Of a DNA stretch of 60,361 bases, positions 48,662-58,534 are shown piece by piece. Made by a program: the position numbers and the translations under genes. The notes under the pieces were generated by a model, which made no database searches, was not told where the DNA came from, and worked only from the letters and a program-made list of their open reading frames with translations. This DNA comes from a bacterium (GTDB taxonomy: Bacteria; Zixibacteria; MSB-5A5; CAIYYT01), in contig DAOVKV010000001.1 of assembly GCA_030631605.1 (NCBI GenBank), positions 1-60,361 on the forward strand. Direction: 5' to 3'. Positions within the stretch are counted from its first letter, which is position 1. Each line of letters opens with the position of its first letter.

Positions 48662-48865
48662 TTGGCTAAAATCAATGCTACTGATTCGGTTGAAGAACTG
48701 ATCGAGCGATATCCCGATCTGGTCGGCTTCCTGATGGATCACGGTATCGTCTGCATCAAATGCGGCGAACCTTTCTGGGGCCCTCTGGGTGACTTGATTG
48801 AAAGTAAAGGCAAAGATACAGACGCGATCTTGGCCGAGATCAATGACCGATTTGGCGGCGATTGA
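48662..48865 (+). CDS. DUF1858-like small redox protein (67 aa)
   Basis: VEELIERYPDLVGFLMDHGIVCIKCGEPFWGPLGDL resembles the hybrid-cluster-protein-associated DUF1858 CxxC domain. TTG start after AAGGAG. Confidence 0.55.
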   Translation: MAKINATDSVEELIERYPDLVGFLMDHGIVCIKCGEPFWGPLGDLIESKGKDTDAILAEINDRFGGD

Positions 48866-49095
48866 AGATATGCCCCAAGTAAGTTGCTGTGGCAGGTTCA
48901 GGTAGCGCTTCCTCCGGCCTGCTTGTCACTTACTTGCCGCCGCCGCCGCGAATGAAAACCTTAAGCCACCTCTTGAAATTCCGCCTGTCTTATCATACTA
49001 TTTCATATATTCAATAGTCGGCTGCTCAGGGAAGAGTGGGCTGGCGGTAACTGAGGAATTAACATGGTGAGCAACTGAGGCAGATTGTAAGAACT

Positions 49096-50421
49096 ATGAA
49101 AAAAGAGACGATTACTGACATCATTCTTGACAGTATCGCCGATGGCGTCTTTACCGTCGATCGTGACTGGCATATCACCTCGTTCAACAAAGCTGCCGCG
49201 AAAATCACCGGCATCCCGCGCGAGGAGGCTATTGGTCAACGCTGCTCTGACGTTTTTCGCGCCTCGATCTGCGAATCGGGATGCGCCCTGAGAAAAACAT
49301 TCGCCACCGGGCAACCTGTAGTTAATCTGACCATATTCATAGTTGATCCCGACGGCAGACAGATACCGGTGAGTGTCTCCACCGCTCTGCTTAAGGATGA
49401 AGATGGTAATGTCATCGGTGGCGTCGAAACATTCCGGGATTTGAGCGTCATGGAAGCACTGCGGCGGGAATTGCAGCAAAGCTATTCTTTTGAAGATATA
49501 GTCAGCAAGAGCAAGCAGATGCGGCAGATATTCGCTATTCTGCCCAGTATCGCCGAAAGCGACACGATCGTTCTGATTGAAGGTGAAAGCGGCACCGGCA
49601 AGGAGCTGATTGCCCGCGCGATTCATCATCTCTCGCATCGAGCCGAGAAACCGTTAGTCACTGTCAATTGCGGCGCTCTGCCCGATACCCTGCTGGAGTC
49701 GGAGCTATTCGGCTACAAGGCGGGCGCTTTCACCGATGCCCGCAGTGACAAACCGGGTCGTCTCGCTCTGGCCGAAGGCGGCACCCTTTTCCTCGATGAG
49801 ATCGCTGATGTTTCGCCCGCCCTGCAGGTACGCCTGCTGCGGGTGCTGCAGGAGCACACCTATGAACCGCTGGGGGGAGTTGAACCGATCAAAGCCGATG
49901 TTCGCATTGTCGCCGCCGTGAATCGTAACCTGGAAAAACTGGTCAAGGCAGGGAAGTTCCGCGAAGACCTTTACTACCGCATCAATGTTCTGAAAATAGA
50001 ATTGCCACCCTTGCGGGAAAGAAAAGAAGATATACCACTGTTGATAGAACATTTCATTGAGCGATTCAACCAGACCAAAAGCAAATCGATCACTGATGTT
50101 TCTTCTGATGTGCTGGCAATTCTGATGACCCACAACTATCCGGGGAATGTCCGTGAACTGGAGAATATCATCGAGCATGCATTCGTGCTCTGCCGCGGCA
50201 CGATCATCGAGAGAGGACATCTGCCGCAGAATCTGCTGGCAAAGGAGAAGAAAGCGTCTCCAACGGTGCATTCGGTGGATGATTTCGAGAAACACATGAT
50301 AGAGGACGCGCTCCGCAAAAATGACTGGAATCGAGTGAAAACCGCAGCGGCGCTAGGGATGAACAAATCGACGTTGTGGCGCAAGATGAAAAAGCTCGGC
50401 ATTATAGTTCCGGAGCAATAG
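49096..50421 (+). CDS. Sigma-54-dependent transcriptional activator with an N-terminal PAS domain
   Basis: PAS (ILDSIADGVFTVDRDWHITSFNKAAAKITG). AAA+ (VLIEGESGTGKELIA, GAFTDA, ESELFGY). C-terminal HTH (AALGMNKSTLWRKMKK). Confidence 0.9.
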   Translation: MKKETITDIILDSIADGVFTVDRDWHITSFNKAAAKITGIPREEAIGQRCSDVFRASICESGCALRKTFATGQPVVNLTIFIVDPDGRQIPVSVSTALLKDEDGNVIGGVETFRDLSVMEALRRELQQSYSFEDIVSKSKQMRQIFAILPSIAESDTIVLIEGESGTGKELIARAIHHLSHRAEKPLVTVNCGALPDTLLESELFGYKAGAFTDARSDKPGRLALAEGGTLFLDEIADVSPALQVRLLRVLQEHTYEPLGGVEPIKADVRIVAAVNRNLEKLVKAGKFREDLYYRINVLKIELPPLRERKEDIPLLIEHFIERFNQTKSKSITDVSSDVLAILMTHNYPGNVRELENIIEHAFVLCRGTIIERGHLPQNLLAKEKKASPTVHSVDDFEKHMIEDALRKNDWNRVKTAAALGMNKSTLWRKMKKLGIIVPEQ

Positions 50422-50424
50422 AGG

Positions 50425-50438
50425 TTGCATATATGCAA
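50425..50438. promoter_or_regulatory. Candidate activator binding site 1, palindrome TTGCATATATGCAA
   Basis: Perfect 14-bp TTGC-N6-GCAA palindrome immediately after the activator gene stop. Confidence 0.55.
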
Positions 50439-50457
50439 CCAAATATTCAACGATAAG

Positions 50458-50471
50458 TTGCGTATCTGCAA
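50458..50471. promoter_or_regulatory. Candidate activator binding site 2, TTGCGTATCTGCAA
   Basis: Same TTGC-N6-GCAA frame. Its centre is 33 bp (three helical turns) from site 1 and ~100 bp upstream of the -24 element. Confidence 0.55.
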
Positions 50472-50566
50472 TCCCATGATTGCTAACACGAACGATGTAA
50501 AAACATACCGTCGCATAACCACTTAAATAACAATACATTATGTGCCGCATGATTGTGGCGTGGATT

Positions 50567-50582
50567 TGGCATGAATTCTGCT
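50567..50582 (+). promoter_or_regulatory. Sigma-54 promoter, TGGCAT-N5-CTGCT (-24 GG / -12 GC)
   Basis: GG and GC are separated by exactly 10 nt, as in TGGCAC-N5-TTGC. It lies downstream of the two palindromes and next to a sigma-54 activator gene. Confidence 0.6.
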
Positions 50583-50597
50583 CATATTCCAAGCGAG

Positions 50598-51038
50598 ATG
50601 AAGATCGGAATACCAGTTTGGGATAATCGGGTTTCACCCCTGCTTGACACAGCCGGTCAGCTCCTGATGGTCAACGTTGAGCAAGAGAAGAGACTTCCTC
50701 GTGAGGTGGTCAATATCCCCTTGCAGCCTCCCTGGCAGAGAGCGCGGTATATCCACGATGCCGGCGTTGGTACTCTGATTTGCGGGGCGGTTTCGCGTCC
50801 CCTGGAGTCGATGTTGATTGCTGCGGGAATAACAGTAATACCCTGGATTCGAGGAGAAATCGAGGAGATTATCGCCGCCTATTCCGCCGGCACTCTCGAT
50901 AAGAGTAGTTATCAACTTCCGGGTTGTTGTCGGCGTCGGGGTCGCCATCGGAGCGGGAGACGCCATCAGCCCAGGGGTGGTTTTGGACAATACAGACAAT
51001 TCTTAAGGAGGAGAGATGAGAATTGCGATTTCTTCTAA
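50598..51038 (+). CDS. NifX/NifB-like (Nitro_FeMo-Co family) protein with an Arg-rich tail
   Basis: Start moved to ATG 50598 (MKIGIPVWDNRVSPLLDTAGQLLMV...GVGTLICGAVS...AGITVIP). The tail reads PGCCRRRGRHRSGRRHQPRGG. Confidence 0.65.
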   Translation: MKIGIPVWDNRVSPLLDTAGQLLMVNVEQEKRLPREVVNIPLQPPWQRARYIHDAGVGTLICGAVSRPLESMLIAAGITVIPWIRGEIEEIIAAYSAGTLDKSSYQLPGCCRRRGRHRSGRRHQPRGGFGQYRQFLRRRDENCDFF

Positions 51039-51378
51039 AGGTAAAGAGCTGAGCAGCGAGATTGATCAGCGTTTCGGCAGAACTCGATACCTGATTGTTT
51101 ACGACACCAGCGACGACAACTGGCAGGCGATCGACAACAGCGCCGCCGAAATGGCGCATGGTGCGGGGGTGCAAGCCGCTCAAACTGTCGTCAACCAGAA
51201 AGTTGATGTTGTGGTTTCCAGTAACTTCGGCCCGAAGGCTTTTCTAATTCTGCAGGCGGCCAAGATTAAGGTGGCGCAACTGGCGCAGGGGACGGTCTCT
51301 GAGGCGATTGATCTGGCTCGGAACAACCAGCTTACTTTCATCGACGGTGCCAGTGTGCCACAAGGCGGTCCCCAGTGA
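51016..51378 (+). CDS. NifX/NifB-like (Nitro_FeMo-Co family) protein
   Basis: MRIAISSKGKELSSEIDQRFGRTRYLIVYD...HGAGVQAAQTVVNQKVDVVVSSNFGPKAF is the classic small NifX-like pattern. Confidence 0.8.
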   Translation: MRIAISSKGKELSSEIDQRFGRTRYLIVYDTSDDNWQAIDNSAAEMAHGAGVQAAQTVVNQKVDVVVSSNFGPKAFLILQAAKIKVAQLAQGTVSEAIDLARNNQLTFIDGASVPQGGPQ

Positions 51379-51547
51379 ATATGAAGGACACAGCGCGGGG
51401 CTTATTGAAAAAGCCATTGCGGCGTGCCCTCGGGTGCAGCTCGCTGCGCCCCTACAAATTGAATTTAACGGTAGGTTGAAACCCCTGCGGTTTCGACTTC
51501 CGAGGATTGGTTTGAATCGTTAACCTTATTTAAGAGGAGTAGAGAAA

Positions 51548-51943
51548 ATGCCAAGAGGAGACAGAACAGGACCGGCTGGCGCCGGGCCGATGACGGGTCG
51601 CGGTGCCGGCTACTGCGCCGGTTATGGCGTACCCGGCTACATGAACCCGGGATTTGGCGGTTATGGCCGTGGTGGTTTTGGCGGCGGGTTCGGCTATGGA
51701 GGCGGACGAGGCCATCGCTGGGGGTATCATTTGACTGGTATGCCCGGTTGGGCACGGGGAGCACCCGGCTACGGGGTCGGCTTTGGCGGCTCTGGCTACC
51801 CTGGTTACTTCGAGCCCGCGCCGGAAGACGAACTCAAGATTCTGAAGAACGAAGCAAGGCTGGCTCAAAAGGCGCTTGATGATATCAACAAGCGAATTGC
51901 TGAGATACAGCCCAAGAATGCGAAGACGCAGAAAGGAGAATAA
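51548..51943 (+). CDS. DUF5320-like protein (RG/GY-rich N-terminal half, coiled-coil C-terminus)
   Basis: MPRGDRTGPAGAGPMTGRGAGYCAGY...GFGGGFGYGGGRGHR...PEDELKILKNEARLAQKALDDINKRIAEIQ. AAGAGGAG Shine-Dalgarno. Confidence 0.7.
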   Translation: MPRGDRTGPAGAGPMTGRGAGYCAGYGVPGYMNPGFGGYGRGGFGGGFGYGGGRGHRWGYHLTGMPGWARGAPGYGVGFGGSGYPGYFEPAPEDELKILKNEARLAQKALDDINKRIAEIQPKNAKTQKGE

Positions 51944-51945
51944 TC

Positions 51946-52248
51946 ATGGGACGTGGAGGTAGAGGTTCCGGCGGCGGTAGTGGTGGTCAGGGCGGTGGAG
52001 GTGGACGTGGCCAGGGTGGCGGCCAAGGACAGGGTGGCGGCAAAAAAGGCGGTGGTGATCAGGGAGGTGGTCAAGGGCAGGGTCGTGGCGGTGGTCGTGG
52101 GCGCTTTCAAGATCAGGGTGGCAGCGGCGCTGGTATCGGTGGAGAATGTGTTTGCCCCAGTTGCGGGGCAACAGCGCCGCACCAAATGGGCGCACCCTGC
52201 AATAGTATACAGTGCCCTAAGTGTGGCCAGACGATGACAAGAAAATGA
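51946..52248 (+). CDS. Gly-rich protein with a C-terminal zinc ribbon (100 aa)
   Basis: ~75 aa of GGxG/RGG low complexity, then CVCPSCG...CPKCG. It starts 3 nt after the previous stop. Alternative-frame ORFs here are shadows of the GC-rich repeat. Confidence 0.5.
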   Translation: MGRGGRGSGGGSGGQGGGGGRGQGGGQGQGGGKKGGGDQGGGQGQGRGGGRGRFQDQGGSGAGIGGECVCPSCGATAPHQMGAPCNSIQCPKCGQTMTRK

Positions 52249-52267
52249 TGGAAGCAACGGCGCTACA

Positions 52268-53140
52268 ATGCAGATAGCTATCGCCAGCGGCAAAGGCGGC
52301 ACCGGCAAGACGACGGTCGCGACCAACCTGGCCGTCGCCCTGGCCGATGCCGGCGAGAAAGTCGCCTATCTTGACTGCGATGTTGAGGAACCTAATGGTC
52401 ATATCTTCATCAAGCCTGAGATCGACCGCAGCGTCAAAATCGAGTTGCCTTTCCCGCAGGTAGACCTGGAGAAATGCACTTTCTGCGGTGAATGTGCTGA
52501 GGCCTGCAAGTTTGGGGCGATGGCGGTAGTTCCGGATAACGTTTTGATCTTTTCGGAACTCTGTCATAGTTGTGGCGCCTGCTTTCACCTCTGTCCGGAG
52601 AAGGCGATCAATGAAATCCCCCGAACGATAGGCGCGGTCCGGCAGGGTTCCGGTATGGGAGTCGATTTCGCCGAAGGGCGGCTTCAGGTCGGCGAGCCGC
52701 TGGCGCCACCTGTTGTTGCGGCTGTCAAACGGTCGATCACACCTGACATAGTGCGTATCCTCGACGCCTCACCGGGTACCACCTGCCCCACGATTGAAGC
52801 AGTCAAGGGGAGTGATTTCGTTCTGCTTGTAACCGAACCGACTCCCTTCGGCTTGAACGACCTGAAACTGGCGGTGGCGATGCTGCAAAAAATGGCATTG
52901 CCGTTTGCGGTAATTATCAACCGCGCTGACATCGGCGATGACCGAGTCGAAGAATACTGCCTGGCGGCAGGCATCGATGTACTTTTGAGGATTCCCCACG
53001 ATAGGAAAATCGCGGAAGTTTATTCTCGAGGTGAGATGATTCTAAACAGTCATCCTGATTATCGGAAGAAGATGCTTTCACTTTATCAGGACATACTGAA
53101 CAGGTTGTCATATGCAAGAACTGGTAATCCTCAGCGGTAA
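52268..53140 (+). CDS. MinD/ParA-superfamily P-loop ATPase with an inserted 4Fe-4S ferredoxin domain (paralogue 1)
   Basis: IAIASGKGGTGKTTVATNLA is a deviant Walker A. It has CTFCGECAEACKF and CHSCGACFHLCPE ferredoxin motifs. COG1149-like, from memory. Confidence 0.85.
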   Translation: MQIAIASGKGGTGKTTVATNLAVALADAGEKVAYLDCDVEEPNGHIFIKPEIDRSVKIELPFPQVDLEKCTFCGECAEACKFGAMAVVPDNVLIFSELCHSCGACFHLCPEKAINEIPRTIGAVRQGSGMGVDFAEGRLQVGEPLAPPVVAAVKRSITPDIVRILDASPGTTCPTIEAVKGSDFVLLVTEPTPFGLNDLKLAVAMLQKMALPFAVIINRADIGDDRVEEYCLAAGIDVLLRIPHDRKIAEVYSRGEMILNSHPDYRKKMLSLYQDILNRLSYARTGNPQR

Positions 53141-54044
53141 GGGCGGCACTGGCAAAACCAGCCTGGTCGGTTCCCTGGCGGTACTGGCGGAAAAGAAAGT
53201 GTTGGTTGATTGCGATGTCGACGCCGCCAACCTCTATCTAATTACCAAGCCGCAAATCGTGAGGAAGGAGAGTTTCTCCGGCGGGATCAAGGCGCGAATC
53301 GATCAGCAAAAATGCAACTCCTGCGGCGTCTGTCTTGATTACTGCCGTTTCGAGGCGATTACCGTTTCCGACGACGGCGTCAACGGCAGCAATCCGGTAT
53401 TCGATATTGATCAGTTGGCCTGCGAGGGTTGTGATCTCTGTTCTCACTTCTGTCCCGAAGATGCGATAATAACAGCGCCAGTAGAAACAGGTGAATGGTA
53501 CATATCAGATACTCCTTACGGACCGATGGTGCATGGGCGTCTTGGTATCGCTGAGGGGAACTCCGGCAAACTGGTCTCGTTGCTGCGGGACCAGGCGCGA
53601 GACCTCGCCGCCGAACGGGAGCTTAACCTGGCGATAATCGACGGGCCGCCGGGGATCGGCTGTCCGGCGATTGCTACCCTCACCGGTGCCAGTTATGTCC
53701 TGATTGTCACCGAACCGTCCCTGTCCGCTTATCATGATCTGAAGCGGGTGGCTGATCTCGCCCGCCATTTCCGGCTGCCGGTAGGAATTTGCCTGAACAA
53801 ATCTGATATAAACGCCAGGATAGCTGGTGAGATTGAGACCTACGCTCGCAATAATAATATGGACTTTCTCGGCGCTTTACCCTATGATGCATTGTTTACC
53901 AGAGCGCAGGTTGCGGGAAAGACGCTGATTGAATATACTTCAAACCAGACTACTGATCGTATCAGATCATTGTGGGTCAGACTGCAAGAGAAGCTTGAAT
54001 TGGGAAATAAGGACTCGCTTCCAGCCGACCAGAAAAAAAGATGA
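53112..54044 (+). CDS. MinD/ParA-superfamily P-loop ATPase with an inserted 4Fe-4S ferredoxin domain (paralogue 2)
   Basis: VILSGKGGTGKTSLVGSLA. CNSCGVCLDYCRF and CEGCDLCSHFCPE. 29-nt overlap with paralogue 1. Confidence 0.85.
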   Translation: MQELVILSGKGGTGKTSLVGSLAVLAEKKVLVDCDVDAANLYLITKPQIVRKESFSGGIKARIDQQKCNSCGVCLDYCRFEAITVSDDGVNGSNPVFDIDQLACEGCDLCSHFCPEDAIITAPVETGEWYISDTPYGPMVHGRLGIAEGNSGKLVSLLRDQARDLAAERELNLAIIDGPPGIGCPAIATLTGASYVLIVTEPSLSAYHDLKRVADLARHFRLPVGICLNKSDINARIAGEIETYARNNNMDFLGALPYDALFTRAQVAGKTLIEYTSNQTTDRIRSLWVRLQEKLELGNKDSLPADQKKR

Positions 54045-54070
54045 CTCTTCAACATAAGGAGCCAACAGAC

Positions 54071-54466
54071 ATGAAAATCGCGGTGCCGACATCAGATGGT
54101 CTCTTGTCTCCCCATTTCGGGCGCTGCCAGGAGTTTACTATTCTGGAAGTCGAGTCTTCAGGGGGGGAAATTGTCGCTGTGGAACATGCGAATCCACCGG
54201 CGCATCAGCCGGGGGCGTTTCCGCAATGGCTCAGTCAATTGGGCGTTAGCCTTGTAATCGCCGGTGGTATGGGAGTGCGGGCCATCCAGATGTTTGAAGC
54301 AAGCGGCATCAAGGTTATCTCTGGGGCGGCGGCGTTACCTCCTGAGGAGTTAGCCAAAGCCTATCTGGAAGGCGAGATGTCCAGCGAGGAGAACCCCTGC
54401 GATCATGACAGCAGCCAGCCGTGCCAGGGGCATGAAGGCAGTCCCCGCAGGCGAGGATGCCGGTAA
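54071..54466 (+). CDS. NifX/NifB-like (Nitro_FeMo-Co family) protein
   Basis: Start moved to ATG 54071 (MKIAVPTSDGLLSPHFGRCQEFTILEV...GVSLVIAGGMGVRAIQMF) after AAGGAG. Confidence 0.8.
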   Translation: MKIAVPTSDGLLSPHFGRCQEFTILEVESSGGEIVAVEHANPPAHQPGAFPQWLSQLGVSLVIAGGMGVRAIQMFEASGIKVISGAAALPPEELAKAYLEGEMSSEENPCDHDSSQPCQGHEGSPRRRGCR

Positions 54467-57077: not shown

Positions 57078-58534
57078 GTTGTCTGATCGGGCAAGTGTTC
57101 CATGCCGTGACGGTGCGCTTCCCTCTGCATCAAGCGCGTCAGCTCTTTCTTACAATCATCAGGCAGACGGGAGGGTCGGTATTCCGTTAGCAGTTTGCTT
57201 ACTTCCTGAGCGGCACGCTGCCGCAAGGTAAAGCCGCCCTCTTCCTGCCAGCGTGACTTGTTGGCACGGTTGATGACCGGGCCAGGGAAATAGTGTTCAT
57301 CGCGGAGGTATCGTTGCGAGTGTTCCGAAATCAGCAGATGTTTCTCCTTAAGCAGTTCCTCGAAGCGAGGCAACGCCGGAAAATCCTCTTTCGGTTCGAT
57401 CCCCTTGAGCATACGCAGGGTCATGCCGCAGATCTCGTTGTCGACAACCAGCTTTTCCAGGCTCTGGCAACTTTCAAAGTCGATCATCCCGGGCCCGGAG
57501 ATGTTGTTAATGCCTGCTAACGCCGCCAGGGTCGCTCCCATCGAGGTCTCCAAACCGGCTTGCGCATCGAGCGCATTGGCGTCACTCAAACCGATGTAAG
57601 CCTGAGTCGGCAGACCGAGATGTTTGCCGATCTCGTTGTGGGCGCAGTCGATCATCATCGTCTCCACCGCACCCATCGGGGTGGTTTCATAGCGAACGTC
57701 GAAGACAGCAGGCGAACCGCCGTAAAGAGCGGGCGCGCCAGGATTGGTCAACTGGCTGATGACAATGCCGGAAAGCGTTTCCGCCGTGTGCTGTACCAGT
57801 GTCCCCACCAGTGTCACCGGCGCCATGAAACCGGAAAGAGGCATTGAGATATACTCGACCGGAATCCCGTAGCGGGCGCAGTCAACCAGGTTTTGCGAAG
57901 TGACATCACTCCACTTTAAGGGTGCCGTCGGACAGACCGAAAAGATGGTCAGGGGTCTTTCTTTTAATCCCGATTCACTGCCGCGCACCGCCAGTTGCAG
58001 TTCTTTCATAATCGTGAATGCCTCAATGGTGAAAGCGCCGGTCACCACCGGTTTCTCGCAGTGCAGCAGACTGAGGTAGAGACGGTAACTGTCGGAGACC
58101 TGTGCGTTCACGTCGGTCGGGATCAGGGCGGTGCTCTGGGAAGCGATATGGTTAAGCCTGCTTACCAGTTTGGTATACTTGATATAGTCGGCGCTGGTCG
58201 GAGGACGCATTTCCCCTGTCTCATTGTCCAGGATTGTTATCGCCGCGGAACCGGGAGTGAAGTGAACATTGTCGCCGCTGAAATCATGAGTCTCATTGCC
58301 CAGGACATCATAGAGTTTGAATGAGTGACATGCGGTTTTCAAGGCGTTGTCGATGATTCCATCTGTCAAGATGGCATGATGTTTCTCGAGATCAATAGTC
58401 GCGCCATGATCAGCCAGCATTTTCAGGATATCCTGGTTATGGATATCCAGTCCCGGACGGCAGAGGAGTATTCGCGCCTCTCTGACGATCTGCTCAATGA
58501 GATCATCACTTAAGAACTTAAGCTTTGGTCGCAC
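57074..58534 (-). CDS. MttB-superfamily (trimethylamine methyltransferase family) protein, non-pyrrolysine type
   Basis: 486-aa uninterrupted ORF with no in-frame TAG. GTG start after GGAGG. N-terminal FLSDDLIEQIVREARILLCRPGLDIHNQDILKMLADHGA and overall length are typical of the MttB family. ATGA-type 4-nt overlap with the next gene. Confidence 0.8.
   Translation of the reverse strand: MRPKLKFLSDDLIEQIVREARILLCRPGLDIHNQDILKMLADHGATIDLEKHHAILTDGIIDNALKTACHSFKLYDVLGNETHDFSGDNVHFTPGSAAITILDNETGEMRPPTSADYIKYTKLVSRLNHIASQSTALIPTDVNAQVSDSYRLYLSLLHCEKPVVTGAFTIEAFTIMKELQLAVRGSESGLKERPLTIFSVCPTAPLKWSDVTSQNLVDCARYGIPVEYISMPLSGFMAPVTLVGTLVQHTAETLSGIVISQLTNPGAPALYGGSPAVFDVRYETTPMGAVETMMIDCAHNEIGKHLGLPTQAYIGLSDANALDAQAGLETSMGATLAALAGINNISGPGMIDFESCQSLEKLVVDNEICGMTLRMLKGIEPKEDFPALPRFEELLKEKHLLISEHSQRYLRDEHYFPGPVINRANKSRWQEEGGFTLRQRAAQEVSKLLTEYRPSRLPDDCKKELTRLMQREAHRHGMEHLPDQTT

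What the first reader, a model, noticed from the sequence alone, without database searches (positions are those of the whole stretch)
48662..54466. Sigma-54-controlled operon of NifX-like, DUF5320, Gly-rich zinc-ribbon and MinD/ferredoxin ATPase proteins
A DUF1858-like redox protein gene and a PAS-containing sigma-54 activator gene are followed by a seven-gene operon:
- NifX-like with an Arg-rich tail
- NifX-like
- DUF5320-like
- Gly-rich zinc-ribbon protein
- two paralogous P-loop ATPases, each with two CxxCxxCxxxC ferredoxin motifs
- NifX-like

From memory, the pairing of COG1149-type ATPases with COG1433-type NifX-like proteins is widespread in anaerobic bacteria and archaea. I am not aware of an experimentally defined function.

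No nitrogenase genes are present here. A role in assembly or trafficking of some other metallocluster, under redox or NO-type control via the PAS activator, is an inference.
Basis: partly seen in the sequence, partly recalled or inferred. Interest (0 to 1): 0.6.

Follow-up and report, generated by a model that had tools for sequence, protein, structure and literature searches.

The report
Orange-protein (ORP) operon with OrpR activator
This is a single-operon version of the "orange protein" (ORP) gene cluster of strict anaerobes with its redox-sensing sigma-54 activator OrpR; the system has been partly studied in Desulfovibrio since 2011, so this is a new example of a known system whose cellular job is still unknown.

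Summary
All nine genes are real and the families are confirmed. The first operon gene starts at 50598, not 50553. The DUF1858 match is below threshold and that gene does not travel with the cluster.

The locus is an orp (ORange Protein) cluster like Desulfovibrio vulgaris DVU2103-2109.
- The activator has OrpR's C-x-D-x6-C-x3-C [4Fe-4S] motif and the rare GAFTDA loop.
- Two TTGC-N6-GCAA palindromes lie upstream of a -24/-12 promoter. This combination occurs once in the 2.6-Mb genome.
- The operon encodes three NifX-fold proteins. One is closest to the D. gigas orange protein and one to the C-terminal domain of MrpORP.
- It also encodes two paralogous MinD-type ATPases, each with 2x[4Fe-4S] motifs.
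- DUF5320 and a Gly-rich protein with a six-Cys/one-His ribbon are extras. They were not found in the one Desulfovibrio-type locus I examined.

The gene set recurs in many phyla, and two related genomes keep the same gene order.

The likely mechanism is expression at low redox potential of an ATP-driven metal-sulfur cluster handling complex. This scan has already reached the same reading in at least 87 other genomes.

The ribbon module is the newest part. It has no Pfam model and is fused elsewhere to NifX, rhodanese and PDZ domains.

The parts
48662..48865 (+). DUF1858-like small CxxC protein. It is probably co-transcribed with the upstream DUF401 membrane-protein gene and is not a conserved part of the orp unit.
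   Evidence: Below threshold for DUF1858 and TIGR03980. It lies 32 nt after the DUF401 stop. It was found in 0 of 42 related loci and is absent next to DUF401 in the sister genome G405.
48973..49001 (+). Candidate sigma-70 promoter of orpR (TTGAAA-17-TACTAT).
   Evidence: Consensus scan only. It agrees with D. vulgaris orpR being sigma-70 transcribed; that fact is from my memory of the Fievet 2011 abstract and was not re-read.
49096..50421 (+). orpR: sigma-54 enhancer-binding protein with PAS, AAA+ and HTH domains. It has C50-x-D52-x6-C59-x3-C63 and a GAFTDA loop.
   Evidence: Pfam domains. The Cys/Asp spacing is identical to DvH OrpR C52/E-or-D54/C61/C65. GAFTDA matches DVU2106. The triad is invariant in 16 cluster-linked orthologues.
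50423..50440 (.). UAS 1: perfect 18-bp palindrome GGTTGCATATATGCAACC (core TTGC-N6-GCAA), starting 2 nt after the orpR stop.
   Evidence: Read. Equivalent palindrome pairs are visible in related loci. Only 9 such palindromes occur in the genome.
50458..50471 (.). UAS 2: TTGCGTATCTGCAA, with its centre 33 bp from UAS 1.
50528..50540 (+). IHF-like site TAACAATACATTA (1 mismatch to WATCAANNNNTTR), in the 60% A+T stretch between the UAS and the promoter.
   Evidence: This is weak, consensus-only evidence. IHF is required at the DvH orp promoters (PMC3897727).
50567..50581 (+). Sigma-54 (-24/-12) promoter TGGCATGAATTCTGC.
   Evidence: The same element precedes the first NifX gene in 12 of 15 OrpR-linked loci, with near-matches in the other 3. 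It is the only s54-like motif in the genome with a UAS 40-250 nt upstream. rpoN is present.
50598..51038 (+). NifX_A: divergent NifX-fold protein with conserved Cys62 and a PGC motif, followed by an Arg-rich (31% R) disordered tail.
51016..51378 (+). NifX_B: orange-protein (Orp8/ORP) type NifX-like protein.
   Evidence: PF02579 at 77.3 bits. PDB 2WFB (D. gigas ORP) E=3.5e-16 and 1RDU E=1.2e-21.
51379..51547 (+). Structured intergenic spacer inside the operon.
   Evidence: MFE -61.1 kcal/mol, z=-3.43, 0 of 200 shuffles as stable. No promoter or terminator match. The spacer is much shorter in relatives L009 and L010.
51548..51943 (+). DUF5320 protein: N-terminal MPRGDRTGPAGAGPMTGRGAGYC motif, a Gly/Tyr/Arg-rich region (40% G) and a C-terminal coiled coil.
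   Evidence: PF17253 at 77.7 bits. Conservation.
51946..52248 (+). Gly-rich (61% G) protein ending in a ribbon with invariant C68, C70, C73, H79, C85, C90 and C93.
   Evidence: No Pfam match. Alignment A2. 2217 representative homologues at E<=1e-3. Fusions to NifX, rhodanese, PDZ and FeS domains. Its N-terminal motif is shared with DUF5320.
52268..53140 (+). ATPase 1 (Orp3/Orp4-type): MinD/Mrp-class P-loop with a deviant Walker A (SGKGGTGKT), an inserted 2x[4Fe-4S] ferredoxin domain and invariant Cys173 after switch II.
53112..54044 (+). ATPase 2 (Orp3/Orp4-type paralogue), 30% identical to ATPase 1, with the same architecture.
54041..54466 (+). NifX_C: stand-alone homologue of the C-terminal 'Di-Nase' domain of MrpORP (Orp9). 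It has conserved C29, H54 and C120 and a Cys-rich tail.
   Evidence: NF041136 positions 259-364, E=9e-34. PF02579 at 78.4 bits. PDB 1O13/1T3V. Conservation.

Best explanation
The locus is an orp (ORange Protein) system: a dedicated OrpR-type sigma-54 activator plus one seven-gene operon.

Regulation, inferred by homology to experiments in D. vulgaris:
- OrpR is made from its own promoter.
- It sits on the two TTGC-N6-GCAA palindromes just downstream of its own gene.
- It holds a [4Fe-4S] cluster in its PAS domain through C50, C59, C63 and possibly D52.
- While that cluster is intact (low redox potential), its AAA+ domain opens the sigma-54 promoter at 50567-50581, probably with an IHF-type bend.
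- Oxidation of the cluster shuts the operon off.

Products, with families shown and function inferred:
- The two paralogous MinD/Mrp-class ATPases, each carrying two [4Fe-4S] clusters, form a heterodimer like Orp3-Orp4.
- The heterodimer associates with the small NifX-fold carriers: the ORP/Orp8-type NifX_B, the Orp9-C-terminal-type NifX_C and the Cys-bearing NifX_A.
- Together they use ATP, and probably low-potential electrons, to build, hold or hand over an oxygen-sensitive metal-sulfur cluster. This could be Fe-S or a Mo/W-Cu-S species of the kind the D. gigas orange protein binds. No nitrogenase is involved.
- The Arg-rich tail of NifX_A, DUF5320 and the Gly-rich six-Cys/one-His ribbon protein are accessory adaptors of the NifX carriers.
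For: Regulator:
- PAS-AAA-HTH architecture.
- C-x-D-x6-C-x3-C spacing identical to the DvH OrpR residues shown by mutagenesis and spectroscopy to carry a redox-sensitive [4Fe-4S] cluster.
- The GAFTDA variant is the one listed for DVU2106.
- The triad is invariant in 16 orthologues linked to the same gene set in several phyla.

Promoter:
- TGGCAT-N5-CTGC with correct spacing.
- Conserved position in 12 of 15 loci, with paired palindromes.
- Unique UAS plus promoter combination in the whole genome. This matches the DvH ChIP-seq result that the orp operons are OrpR's only targets.
- rpoN is present.

Structural genes:
- NifX_B matches D. gigas ORP 2WFB at 3.5e-16.
- NifX_C matches MrpORP positions 259-364 at 9e-34.
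- The two ATPases have 2x[4Fe-4S] motifs and are 30% identical, like Orp3/Orp4.
- A high-GC locus carrying the published DvH UAS GGGCGYRTTTTGCGCCC has an OrpR orthologue at 503 bits and the same protein families.

Co-conservation in 42 well-flanked loci:
- ATPase2 41, NifX_B 38, NifX_C 31, ribbon protein 23, DUF5320 20, NifX_A 18, OrpR 13.
- Gene order is identical in L009/G424 and L010/G405.

Metal-sulfur reading:
- MrpORP transfers Fe-S clusters to Orp3-Orp4-Orp8 in vitro.
- The nearest folds to the ATPase are MinD, ATPase-type HypB, ApbC, Cfd1 and NifH.
- The ribbon module is fused elsewhere to NifX, rhodanese, an FeS domain and PDZ.
Against: - There is no expression or biochemical evidence for this organism.
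- The function of the ORP complex itself is unresolved in the literature, which favours a cell-division link.
- The Mrp half of Orp9 is missing from the cluster. The genome's only Mrp-class gene lies elsewhere and lacks Cys where the CxxC motif is expected. The published Fe-S loading route may therefore not apply here.
- The UAS sequence differs from the DvH one.
- The predicted 5' UTR is only about 5 nt, so either the first gene is translated almost leaderless or the promoter call is slightly off.
- I could not obtain the D. vulgaris protein sequences, so Orp3/4/5/7 orthology is by family and literature description only.
- The genome has only one molybdopterin oxidoreductase and no detected ModA. 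This does not favour a Mo-based cluster here.
Confidence: 0.75

Rival explanations
1. The complex is a MinD-like positioning or cell-division device. This is the hypothesis originally put forward for the D. vulgaris ORP complex. Its Fe-S clusters would act only as redox switches.
For: - The best structural matches of ATPase 1 include archaeal and bacterial MinD and FleN/FlhG.
- Both ATPases end in a candidate amphipathic helix (muH 0.55-0.61), as reported for Orp3/Orp4.
- The DvH orpR mutant has morphological defects and MrpORP is polar.
Against: - The ATPases score far below the MinD family cut-offs (66.7 and 55.7 against 201.75 bits).
- The cluster is very patchy: 1 of 18 same-family genomes and 4 of 12 same-class genomes searched. 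That is unlike a core division function.
- Every partner gene is a NifX-fold or Cys-rich metal-type protein.
- The ribbon module is fused to rhodanese and FeS domains.
- The C-terminal regions are not conserved across the family.
Confidence: 0.12
2. The two ATPases are an ATP-driven low-potential electron donor, a NifH-like 'archerase', for an enzyme encoded elsewhere. The NifX-like proteins would act as docking adaptors rather than cluster carriers.
For: - The fold is of the NifH/BchL class, with a signature-lysine Walker A.
- Each subunit has two [4Fe-4S] motifs.
- An invariant Cys follows switch II in both paralogues.
Against: - No candidate client enzyme is encoded in or next to the cluster in the 80 loci examined.
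- NifX-fold proteins are known as cofactor carriers.
- The D. gigas ORP carries a Mo-Cu-S cluster non-covalently (literature).
Confidence: 0.1
3. The genes are neighbours by chance or a remnant of nitrogenase cofactor biosynthesis, not one functional unit.
For: - The NifX-like domain is named after nitrogenase cofactor proteins.
- A 169-nt gap splits the operon.
Against: - The set recurs across phyla with the same members, and with identical order in two relatives.
- No NifD/K-family gene was found in the genome.
- The genes overlap or are at most 19 nt apart apart from the one gap.
Confidence: 0.02

Closest known systems
orp operons, ORP complex and OrpR (DVU2103-DVU2109) of Desulfovibrio vulgaris Hildenborough (Fievet 2011; PMC3897727; PMC6345978; PMC8359166)
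   Same: - A dedicated sigma-54 activator with a PAS Cys triad and GAFTDA loop.
- Paired palindromic UAS, an A+T-rich spacer and a -24/-12 promoter.
- Two paralogous MinD-type ATPases with 2x[4Fe-4S] motifs.
- An ORP-type NifX-like protein and an Orp9-C-terminal-type NifX-like protein.
- A predicted regulon limited to the cluster itself.
   Different: - One unidirectional seven-gene operon instead of two divergent three-gene operons.
- The UAS core is TTGC-N6-GCAA rather than GGGCGYRTTTTGCGCCC.
- The Mrp/NBP35 half of Orp9 is absent from the cluster.
- DUF5320 and the Gly-rich ribbon protein are present. They were not detected in the Desulfovibrio-type locus L091, where the N-terminal motif is instead fused to the ORP homologue.
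- The host is outside the Deltaproteobacteria, to which PMC8359166 says OrpR seems restricted.
Orange protein of Desulfovibrio gigas (PDB 2WFB), carrier of a non-covalently bound [S2MoS2CuS2MoS2]3- cluster
   Same: NifX_B aligns over 106 residues at E=3.5e-16, including the RFGR and HGAG motifs.
   Different: Cluster binding is untested here. The genome shows little sign of Mo use: one molybdopterin enzyme and no ModA found.
NifX / NafY / NifB C-terminal domain (PF02579), the FeMo-cofactor precursor carriers of nitrogenase assembly
   Same: All three small proteins have the same fold.
   Different: The genome has no nitrogenase or NifEN. The sequences are nearer to the stand-alone TM1290, TM1816, PH0822 and ORP proteins.
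SIMIBI-class metal-centre ATPases: Mrp/ApbC/Nbp35-Cfd1, ATPase-type HypB, NifH
   Same: P-loop fold with a deviant Walker A signature lysine, implying a nucleotide-dependent dimer. Best Foldseek matches have TMq 0.53-0.60.
   Different: The window's ATPases carry an inserted two-cluster ferredoxin domain after the switch I region. No solved structure has this. They also lack the Mrp CxxC motif.

Membership tests
orp / ORP system (D. vulgaris type) | Adjacent sigma-54 EBP with an N-terminal PAS domain bearing three conserved Cys (C52, C61, C65 in DvH) plus an Asp/Glu two residues after the first Cys | tested here: met
   C50, D52, C59 and C63 have identical spacing. The triad is invariant in 16 orthologues.
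orp / ORP system (D. vulgaris type) | GAFTDA variant of the GAFTGA sigma-54 contact loop | tested here: met
   GAFTDA is present in the window and in 13 of 16 orthologues. It is listed for DVU2106 in PMC4641369.
orp / ORP system (D. vulgaris type) | -24/-12 promoter preceded by a palindromic OrpR binding site | tested here: met
   TGGCATGAATTCTGC plus two TTGC-N6-GCAA palindromes. The arrangement is conserved in related loci and unique in the genome. The palindrome sequence differs from the DvH consensus. Binding was not tested.
orp / ORP system (D. vulgaris type) | IHF site between the UAS and the promoter | tested here: inconclusive
   One 1-mismatch match to WATCAANNNNTTR at 50528-50540 within a 60% A+T spacer.
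orp / ORP system (D. vulgaris type) | Two paralogous MinD/ParA-class ATPases (Orp3, Orp4), each with two [4Fe-4S] ferredoxin motifs | tested here: met
   They are 30% identical and 46% similar; Orp3/Orp4 are reported as 41% similar.
orp / ORP system (D. vulgaris type) | Orange protein (Orp8) homologue | tested here: met
   NifX_B against 2WFB gives E=3.5e-16.
orp / ORP system (D. vulgaris type) | MrpORP (Orp9): an Mrp/NBP35 P-loop domain fused to a Di-Nase (NifX-like) domain | tested here: not met
   NF041136 scores 117 bits against a 450 cut-off, and only positions 259-364 are matched. The only Mrp-class gene is on another contig. Fused forms occur in 8 of 42 related loci.
orp / ORP system (D. 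vulgaris type) | The proteins form one physical complex, and ORP binds a Mo-Cu-S cluster | not testable with these tools
   This needs anaerobic purification and spectroscopy.
Pfam PF02579 Nitro_FeMo-Co (NifX-like) | Score above the 26.3-bit gathering cut-off | tested here: met
   NifX_B scores 77.3 and NifX_C 78.4. NifX_A scores 25.6, just below the cut-off, but its predicted fold matches PH0822 at rmsd 1.3-1.4 A and 13 other NifX-fold entries.
Pfam PF17253 DUF5320 | Score above the 27-bit cut-off over the full profile | tested here: met
   77.7 bits over profile positions 1-99.
Pfam PF08984 DUF1858 / TIGR03980 | Score above the curated cut-off | tested here: not met
   26.1 against 32.2 bits, and 27.8 against 44.95 bits.
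MinD (TIGR01968 / TIGR01969) | Score above the curated cut-off | tested here: not met
   66.7 and 55.7 bits against 201.75; 42.1 and 40.0 bits against 212.9.

The most novel reading that the evidence does not exclude
Three parts share features that suggest one undescribed adaptor system: the Arg-rich tail of NifX_A, DUF5320, and the Gly-rich protein with the invariant C-x-C-x2-C-x5-H-x5-C-x4-C-x2-C ribbon. In most homologues of the two stand-alone proteins (the window's own ribbon protein has a degenerate copy), and in some NifX_A fusions, there is a common N-terminal MPxGDxTGPxGxGPxTGRG motif. The proposal is that they dock onto NifX-fold carriers and bind or deliver anionic metal-sulfide species. 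The ribbon would be a new metal or cluster site rather than a structural zinc ribbon. The RG/GY-rich segments might concentrate the machinery in a condensate-like assembly.
Probability: 0.3. Interest if true: 0.55.

Novelty: new member of a known kind. Interest (0 to 1): 0.3.

Why it matters
The ORP system is among the most widespread gene sets specific to anaerobes that still lack a known job. The ATPase family alone gave at least 7966 clusters (90% identity) at E<=1e-60 among the 8000 candidates scored.

This locus adds little on its own. It does show three things:
- The OrpR [4Fe-4S]/sigma-54 redox switch works with the cluster well outside the Deltaproteobacteria.
- The compact seven-gene form is a natural minimal set for heterologous reconstitution.
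- Two unstudied small proteins, DUF5320 and the six-Cys/one-His ribbon, belong to the system. The ribbon's domain fusions to NifX, rhodanese and FeS domains favour metal-sulfur cluster handling over cell division.

Public annotation calls these genes only 'ATP-binding protein', 'MinD superfamily P-loop ATPase' or 'hypothetical protein'. Linking them to ORP would improve annotation.

Tried and rejected
- Fievet 2011 (PMC3133258) is not held. The roles of Orp5 and Orp7 and the DvH sequences could not be checked, so I did not assign Orp3 versus Orp4 or Orp5/Orp7 orthology.
- I searched 401 genomes of the phylum of L082's genome for the DvH UAS. That gave one true orp locus (L091) and one unrelated hit (L092, no orp genes).
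- An Rfam scan of the window found nothing in the locus.
- The sigma-70 and terminator scans were at background level, and no terminator was found after 54466.
- NO sensing was rejected. NorR-type sensing uses a GAF/non-haem-iron domain, whereas this protein has the OrpR PAS Cys triad.
- A RiPP-precursor reading of the conserved-N-terminus, variable-Gly-rich proteins was considered and dropped. No modifying enzyme is encoded in this cluster.
- A nitrogenase remnant was rejected.
- A second weak DUF5320-like hit on contig C80 (25 bits, with an internal TGA) was not pursued. My own scan found no paralogue at E<=1e-4.

Full report
**Observation**

- 49096-50421 encodes a PAS + sigma-54 AAA+ + HTH_8 activator.
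- Downstream lie three Nitro_FeMo-Co (NifX-like) genes at 50598-51038, 51016-51378 and 54041-54466.
- There is a DUF5320 gene at 51548-51943 (77.7 bits).
- A Gly-rich gene with a C-terminal Cys ribbon and no Pfam match lies at 51946-52248.
- Two CbiA/ParA-type P-loop genes lie at 52268-53140 and 53112-54044. Each has two CxxCxxCxxxC motifs, and they are 30% identical to each other.

Three corrections are needed.
- The first gene begins at ATG 50598, because the sigma-54 promoter lies inside the longer TTG-initiated ORF.
- The 67-aa DUF1858-like protein scores below both curated cut-offs. It follows the DUF401 membrane-protein gene by 32 nt and was found in none of 42 well-flanked related loci. 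It was also absent beside DUF401 in the sister genome G405. It is therefore a neighbour and not a member.
- The operon is tight (overlaps or gaps of 19 nt or less) except for a 169-nt spacer at 51379-51547. That spacer folds unusually well (z=-3.43).

**What it is**

NCBIfam gave the lead. The last NifX-like protein matches the C-terminal domain of 'MrpORP' at E=9e-34. [quoted passage not shown]

In that organism two operons, orp5-orp4-orp3 and orp7-orp8-orp9, flank the activator gene orpR (DVU2106). They are transcribed by sigma-54 RNA polymerase with IHF (PMC3897727; PMC8359166).

The published properties are as follows.
- Orp3 and Orp4 are paralogous ATPases, each with two [4Fe-4S] motifs.
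- Orp8 is the orange protein, whose homologues hold a non-covalent [S2MoS2CuS2MoS2] cluster.
- Orp9 is an Mrp/NBP35 domain fused to a NifX-like domain. It transfers Fe-S clusters to Orp3-Orp4-Orp8 in vitro (PMC6345978).

The window matches this system on the following points.
- The activator has C50-x-D52-x6-C59-x3-C63. [quoted passage not shown]
- It has the unusual GAFTDA loop that PMC4641369 lists for DVU2106.
- NifX_B is closest to the D. gigas orange protein 2WFB (E=3.5e-16) and to 1RDU.
- NifX_C is closest to 1O13/1T3V and to the MrpORP C-terminal domain.
- NifX_A is divergent in sequence. Its AlphaFold model has core pLDDT >90 and a tail near 53. The model superposes on PH0822 at 1.3-1.4 A, and the top 14 Foldseek hits are all of the NifX/NafY/ORP fold.

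**Control region**

- Two nucleotides after the orpR stop lies the perfect palindrome GGTTGCATATATGCAACC (50423-50440).
- A second copy, TTGCGTATCTGCAA (50458-50471), follows 33 bp later.
- Next comes a 60% A+T spacer with one IHF-like site.
- Then comes TGGCATGAATTCTGC (50567-50581), which has exact GG-N10-GC spacing.

In 15 loci where an OrpR orthologue precedes the cluster, 12 show a strict TGGCAY-N5-hTGC element before the first NifX gene. The other three show near-matches. Paired TTGCA/TGCAA-type palindromes sit right after the orpR stop in at least 12 of them.

In the whole 2.6-Mb genome (95.5% complete) there are 43 promoter-like motifs and 9 such palindromes. Only this operon has a palindrome 40-250 nt upstream of a promoter motif, and it has both copies. 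This parallels the ChIP-seq finding that the orp operons are OrpR's only targets. rpoN is present on contig C172.

The -12 element ends only 16 nt before the ATG, so the predicted leader is about 5 nt. Four of the nine related loci I measured also have predicted leaders of 3-7 nt.

**Conservation**

A search with ATPase 1 returned 80 loci at 49-59% identity. They come from Planctomycetota, Desulfobacterota, Chloroflexota, Ignavibacteria, Aminicenantes, Omnitrophota, NC10, Hydrogenedentota, Bacillota and Zixibacteria.

Scoring the window's proteins against their ORFs gave the following counts in the 42 loci with enough flank.

| Component | Loci (of 42) |
|---|---|
| ATPase 2 | 41 |
| NifX_B | 38 |
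| NifX_C | 31 |
| Ribbon protein | 23 |
| DUF5320 | 20 |
| NifX_A | 18 |
| A third Mrp/MinD-like ATPase | 17 |
| OrpR | 13 |
| NifX_C homologue longer than 300 aa (probably Orp9-like fusion) | 8 |

Two genomes reproduce the window's order exactly: G405 (same family, equal to L010) and G424 (same class, equal to L009). That order is OrpR, NifX_A, NifX_B, DUF5320, ribbon, ATPase 1, ATPase 2, NifX_C.

Within the window's own lineage the cluster is patchy. It was found in 1 of 18 same-family genomes and 4 of 12 same-class genomes searched, most of them at least 94% complete.

The source names of the best ATPase hits point to candidate division Zixibacteria.

The OrpR Cys triad is invariant in all 16 orthologues, including ones from Planctomycetota, NC10 and Hydrogenedentota. 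PMC8359166 states that OrpR seems restricted to Deltaproteobacteria; these data extend that range.

**Link to the Desulfovibrio type**

I could not read Fievet 2011 or fetch the DvH sequences. Instead I searched 401 genomes of the phylum of L082's genome for the published OrpR site GGGCGYRTTTTGCGCCC.

One hit, L091 (68% G+C), lies between an OrpR orthologue and TGGCACGCTTCCTGC. The orthologue scores 503 bits and has the Cys triad and GAFTDA. The genes that follow are NifX_A-like, Mrp, ORP-like, ATPase 1, ATPase 2 and NifX_C-like.

No separate DUF5320 or ribbon gene was detected there. However, the ORP homologue carries an N-terminal MPGMNGKGPRGAGPMSGGGRGRC motif followed by GGGRGM repeats.

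**The three low-complexity proteins**

The composition of the three segments is as follows.
- The NifX_A tail is 31% Arg.
- DUF5320 residues 1-88 are 40% Gly and rich in Tyr and Arg.
- The ribbon protein's residues 1-66 are 61% Gly.

Most ribbon-protein homologues begin with MPRGDGTGPxGQGPGTGRG, which is the DUF5320 N-terminal motif. A profile-profile comparison gives 95% probability and E=2.5e-8 over those 20 columns. The window's own copy is degenerate (MGRGGRGSGGG).

The ribbon has seven invariant ligand-type residues in 26 positions: C68, C70, C73, H79, C85, C90 and C93. That is three more than a zinc ribbon needs.

A profile search of 1.84 billion representatives found 2217 relatives at E<=1e-3 and 707 at E<=1e-10. 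Most of the 150 best-scoring relatives listed are 60-110 aa. All the hits in a word-based search that carry a source name are called 'hypothetical protein'.

Longer relatives are informative.
- Two PDZ domains + ribbon repeats + NifX.
- Rhodanese + three ribbons + NifX.
- FeS (PF04060) + DUF5320 motif + ribbon.
- Several NifX + ribbon proteins.

In L067, NifX_A itself ends in the ribbon. In L062 and L081 it ends in the MPxxDxTGP motif. These fusions tie the modules physically to NifX-fold domains and, through rhodanese, to sulfur transfer.

**The ATPases**

The ATPase 1 model is confident (pLDDT 94.5). Its nearest solved folds are archaeal MinD, ATPase-type HypB, ApbC, FleN, Cfd1 and NifH. TMq is only 0.53-0.60, because no solved structure contains the inserted ferredoxin domain.

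Invariant features are as follows.
- The signature-lysine Walker A (SGKGGTGKT).
- DCDVEEPN.
- All eight ferredoxin Cys.
- A Cys just after switch II (PGTxCP).
- TEPTPFGxxDL.

Both proteins score far below the MinD cut-offs.

**Mechanism**

The regulatory half rests on direct experiments in D. vulgaris, carried over by strict conservation of motifs. The operon should be on when the OrpR [4Fe-4S] cluster is intact (low redox potential) and off after oxidation.

The functional half is inference. It proposes an ATP-dependent heterodimer loaded with Fe-S clusters, working with NifX-fold carriers to assemble, store or deliver an oxygen-labile metal-sulfur cluster.

Nitrogenase is excluded. No PF00148 match was found, and the Fer4_NifH matches are P-loop fragments only.

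A Mo-containing cluster is not favoured in this genome. It has one molybdopterin enzyme and no ModA detected. This evidence is weak.

The published alternative, a role in septum positioning, remains possible. It fits poorly with the patchy distribution and with the domain fusions.

**Differences from the model system**

- A single operon.
- A different UAS sequence.
- No Mrp domain in the cluster. The genome's only Mrp-class gene lies next to dnaA/dnaN, has a DUF59-type N-terminus and shows no Cys where the CxxC motif is expected.
- Presence of DUF5320 and the ribbon protein.

**Novelty and verdict**

This is a new member of a known, partly characterised system.

I reached the ORP reading from NCBIfam and the literature before consulting the scan's notes. 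Those notes show that follow-up agents gave the same reading for similar clusters in at least 87 other genomes.

Interest is modest. The one thread worth following is the undescribed ribbon/DUF5320 module.

Noticed in passing
window 50581-50600: The sigma-54 -12 element ends 16 nt before the ATG of the first gene, so the predicted 5' UTR is about 5 nt and has no Shine-Dalgarno sequence. Four of the nine related loci measured also have predicted leaders of 3-7 nt. In L048 the AGGAG would lie upstream of the predicted start site. This suggests near-leaderless translation from a sigma-54 promoter.
   Followed up: partly
window 51379-51547: A 169-nt spacer inside the operon, between NifX_B and DUF5320, folds at -61.1 kcal/mol (z=-3.43). 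No promoter, terminator or Rfam match was found. The spacer is much shorter (31-64 nt) in relatives with the same gene order.
   Followed up: partly
G000:C113:27855-28940 (-), locus L001: The genome's only Mrp/ApbC-class gene lies beside dnaA and dnaN. It reads ENMSYFETESGTREYIFG where Mrp proteins normally have the cluster-binding CxxC motif. I read this by eye and did not check it with an alignment.
   Followed up: no
L091:7773-8672 (-): In a 68% G+C Desulfovibrio-type orp locus, the orange-protein homologue carries an N-terminal DUF5320-like motif (MPGMNGKGPRGAGPMSGGGRGRC) and four GGGRGM repeats. In that lineage the motif is therefore fused to ORP itself.
   Followed up: partly
P0022, P0026, P0030: These are proteins of 600-990 aa with PDZ or rhodanese domains, three to four tandem copies of the six-Cys/one-His ribbon and a C-terminal NifX-like domain. 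I know of no description of this architecture.
   Followed up: partly
window 57490-57589 (-): Rfam reports a PYLIS_3 (pyrrolysine insertion sequence of mttB) match at 39.8 bits inside the MttB-family gene of the convergent downstream cassette. That cassette was the subject of another finding of this scan.
   Followed up: no
relatives G403-G432: The orp ATPase was found in only 1 of 18 same-family genomes and 4 of 12 same-class genomes. Yet G405 and G424 keep the identical eight-gene order. This suggests either loss in most lineages or lateral transfer of the whole block.
   Followed up: partly
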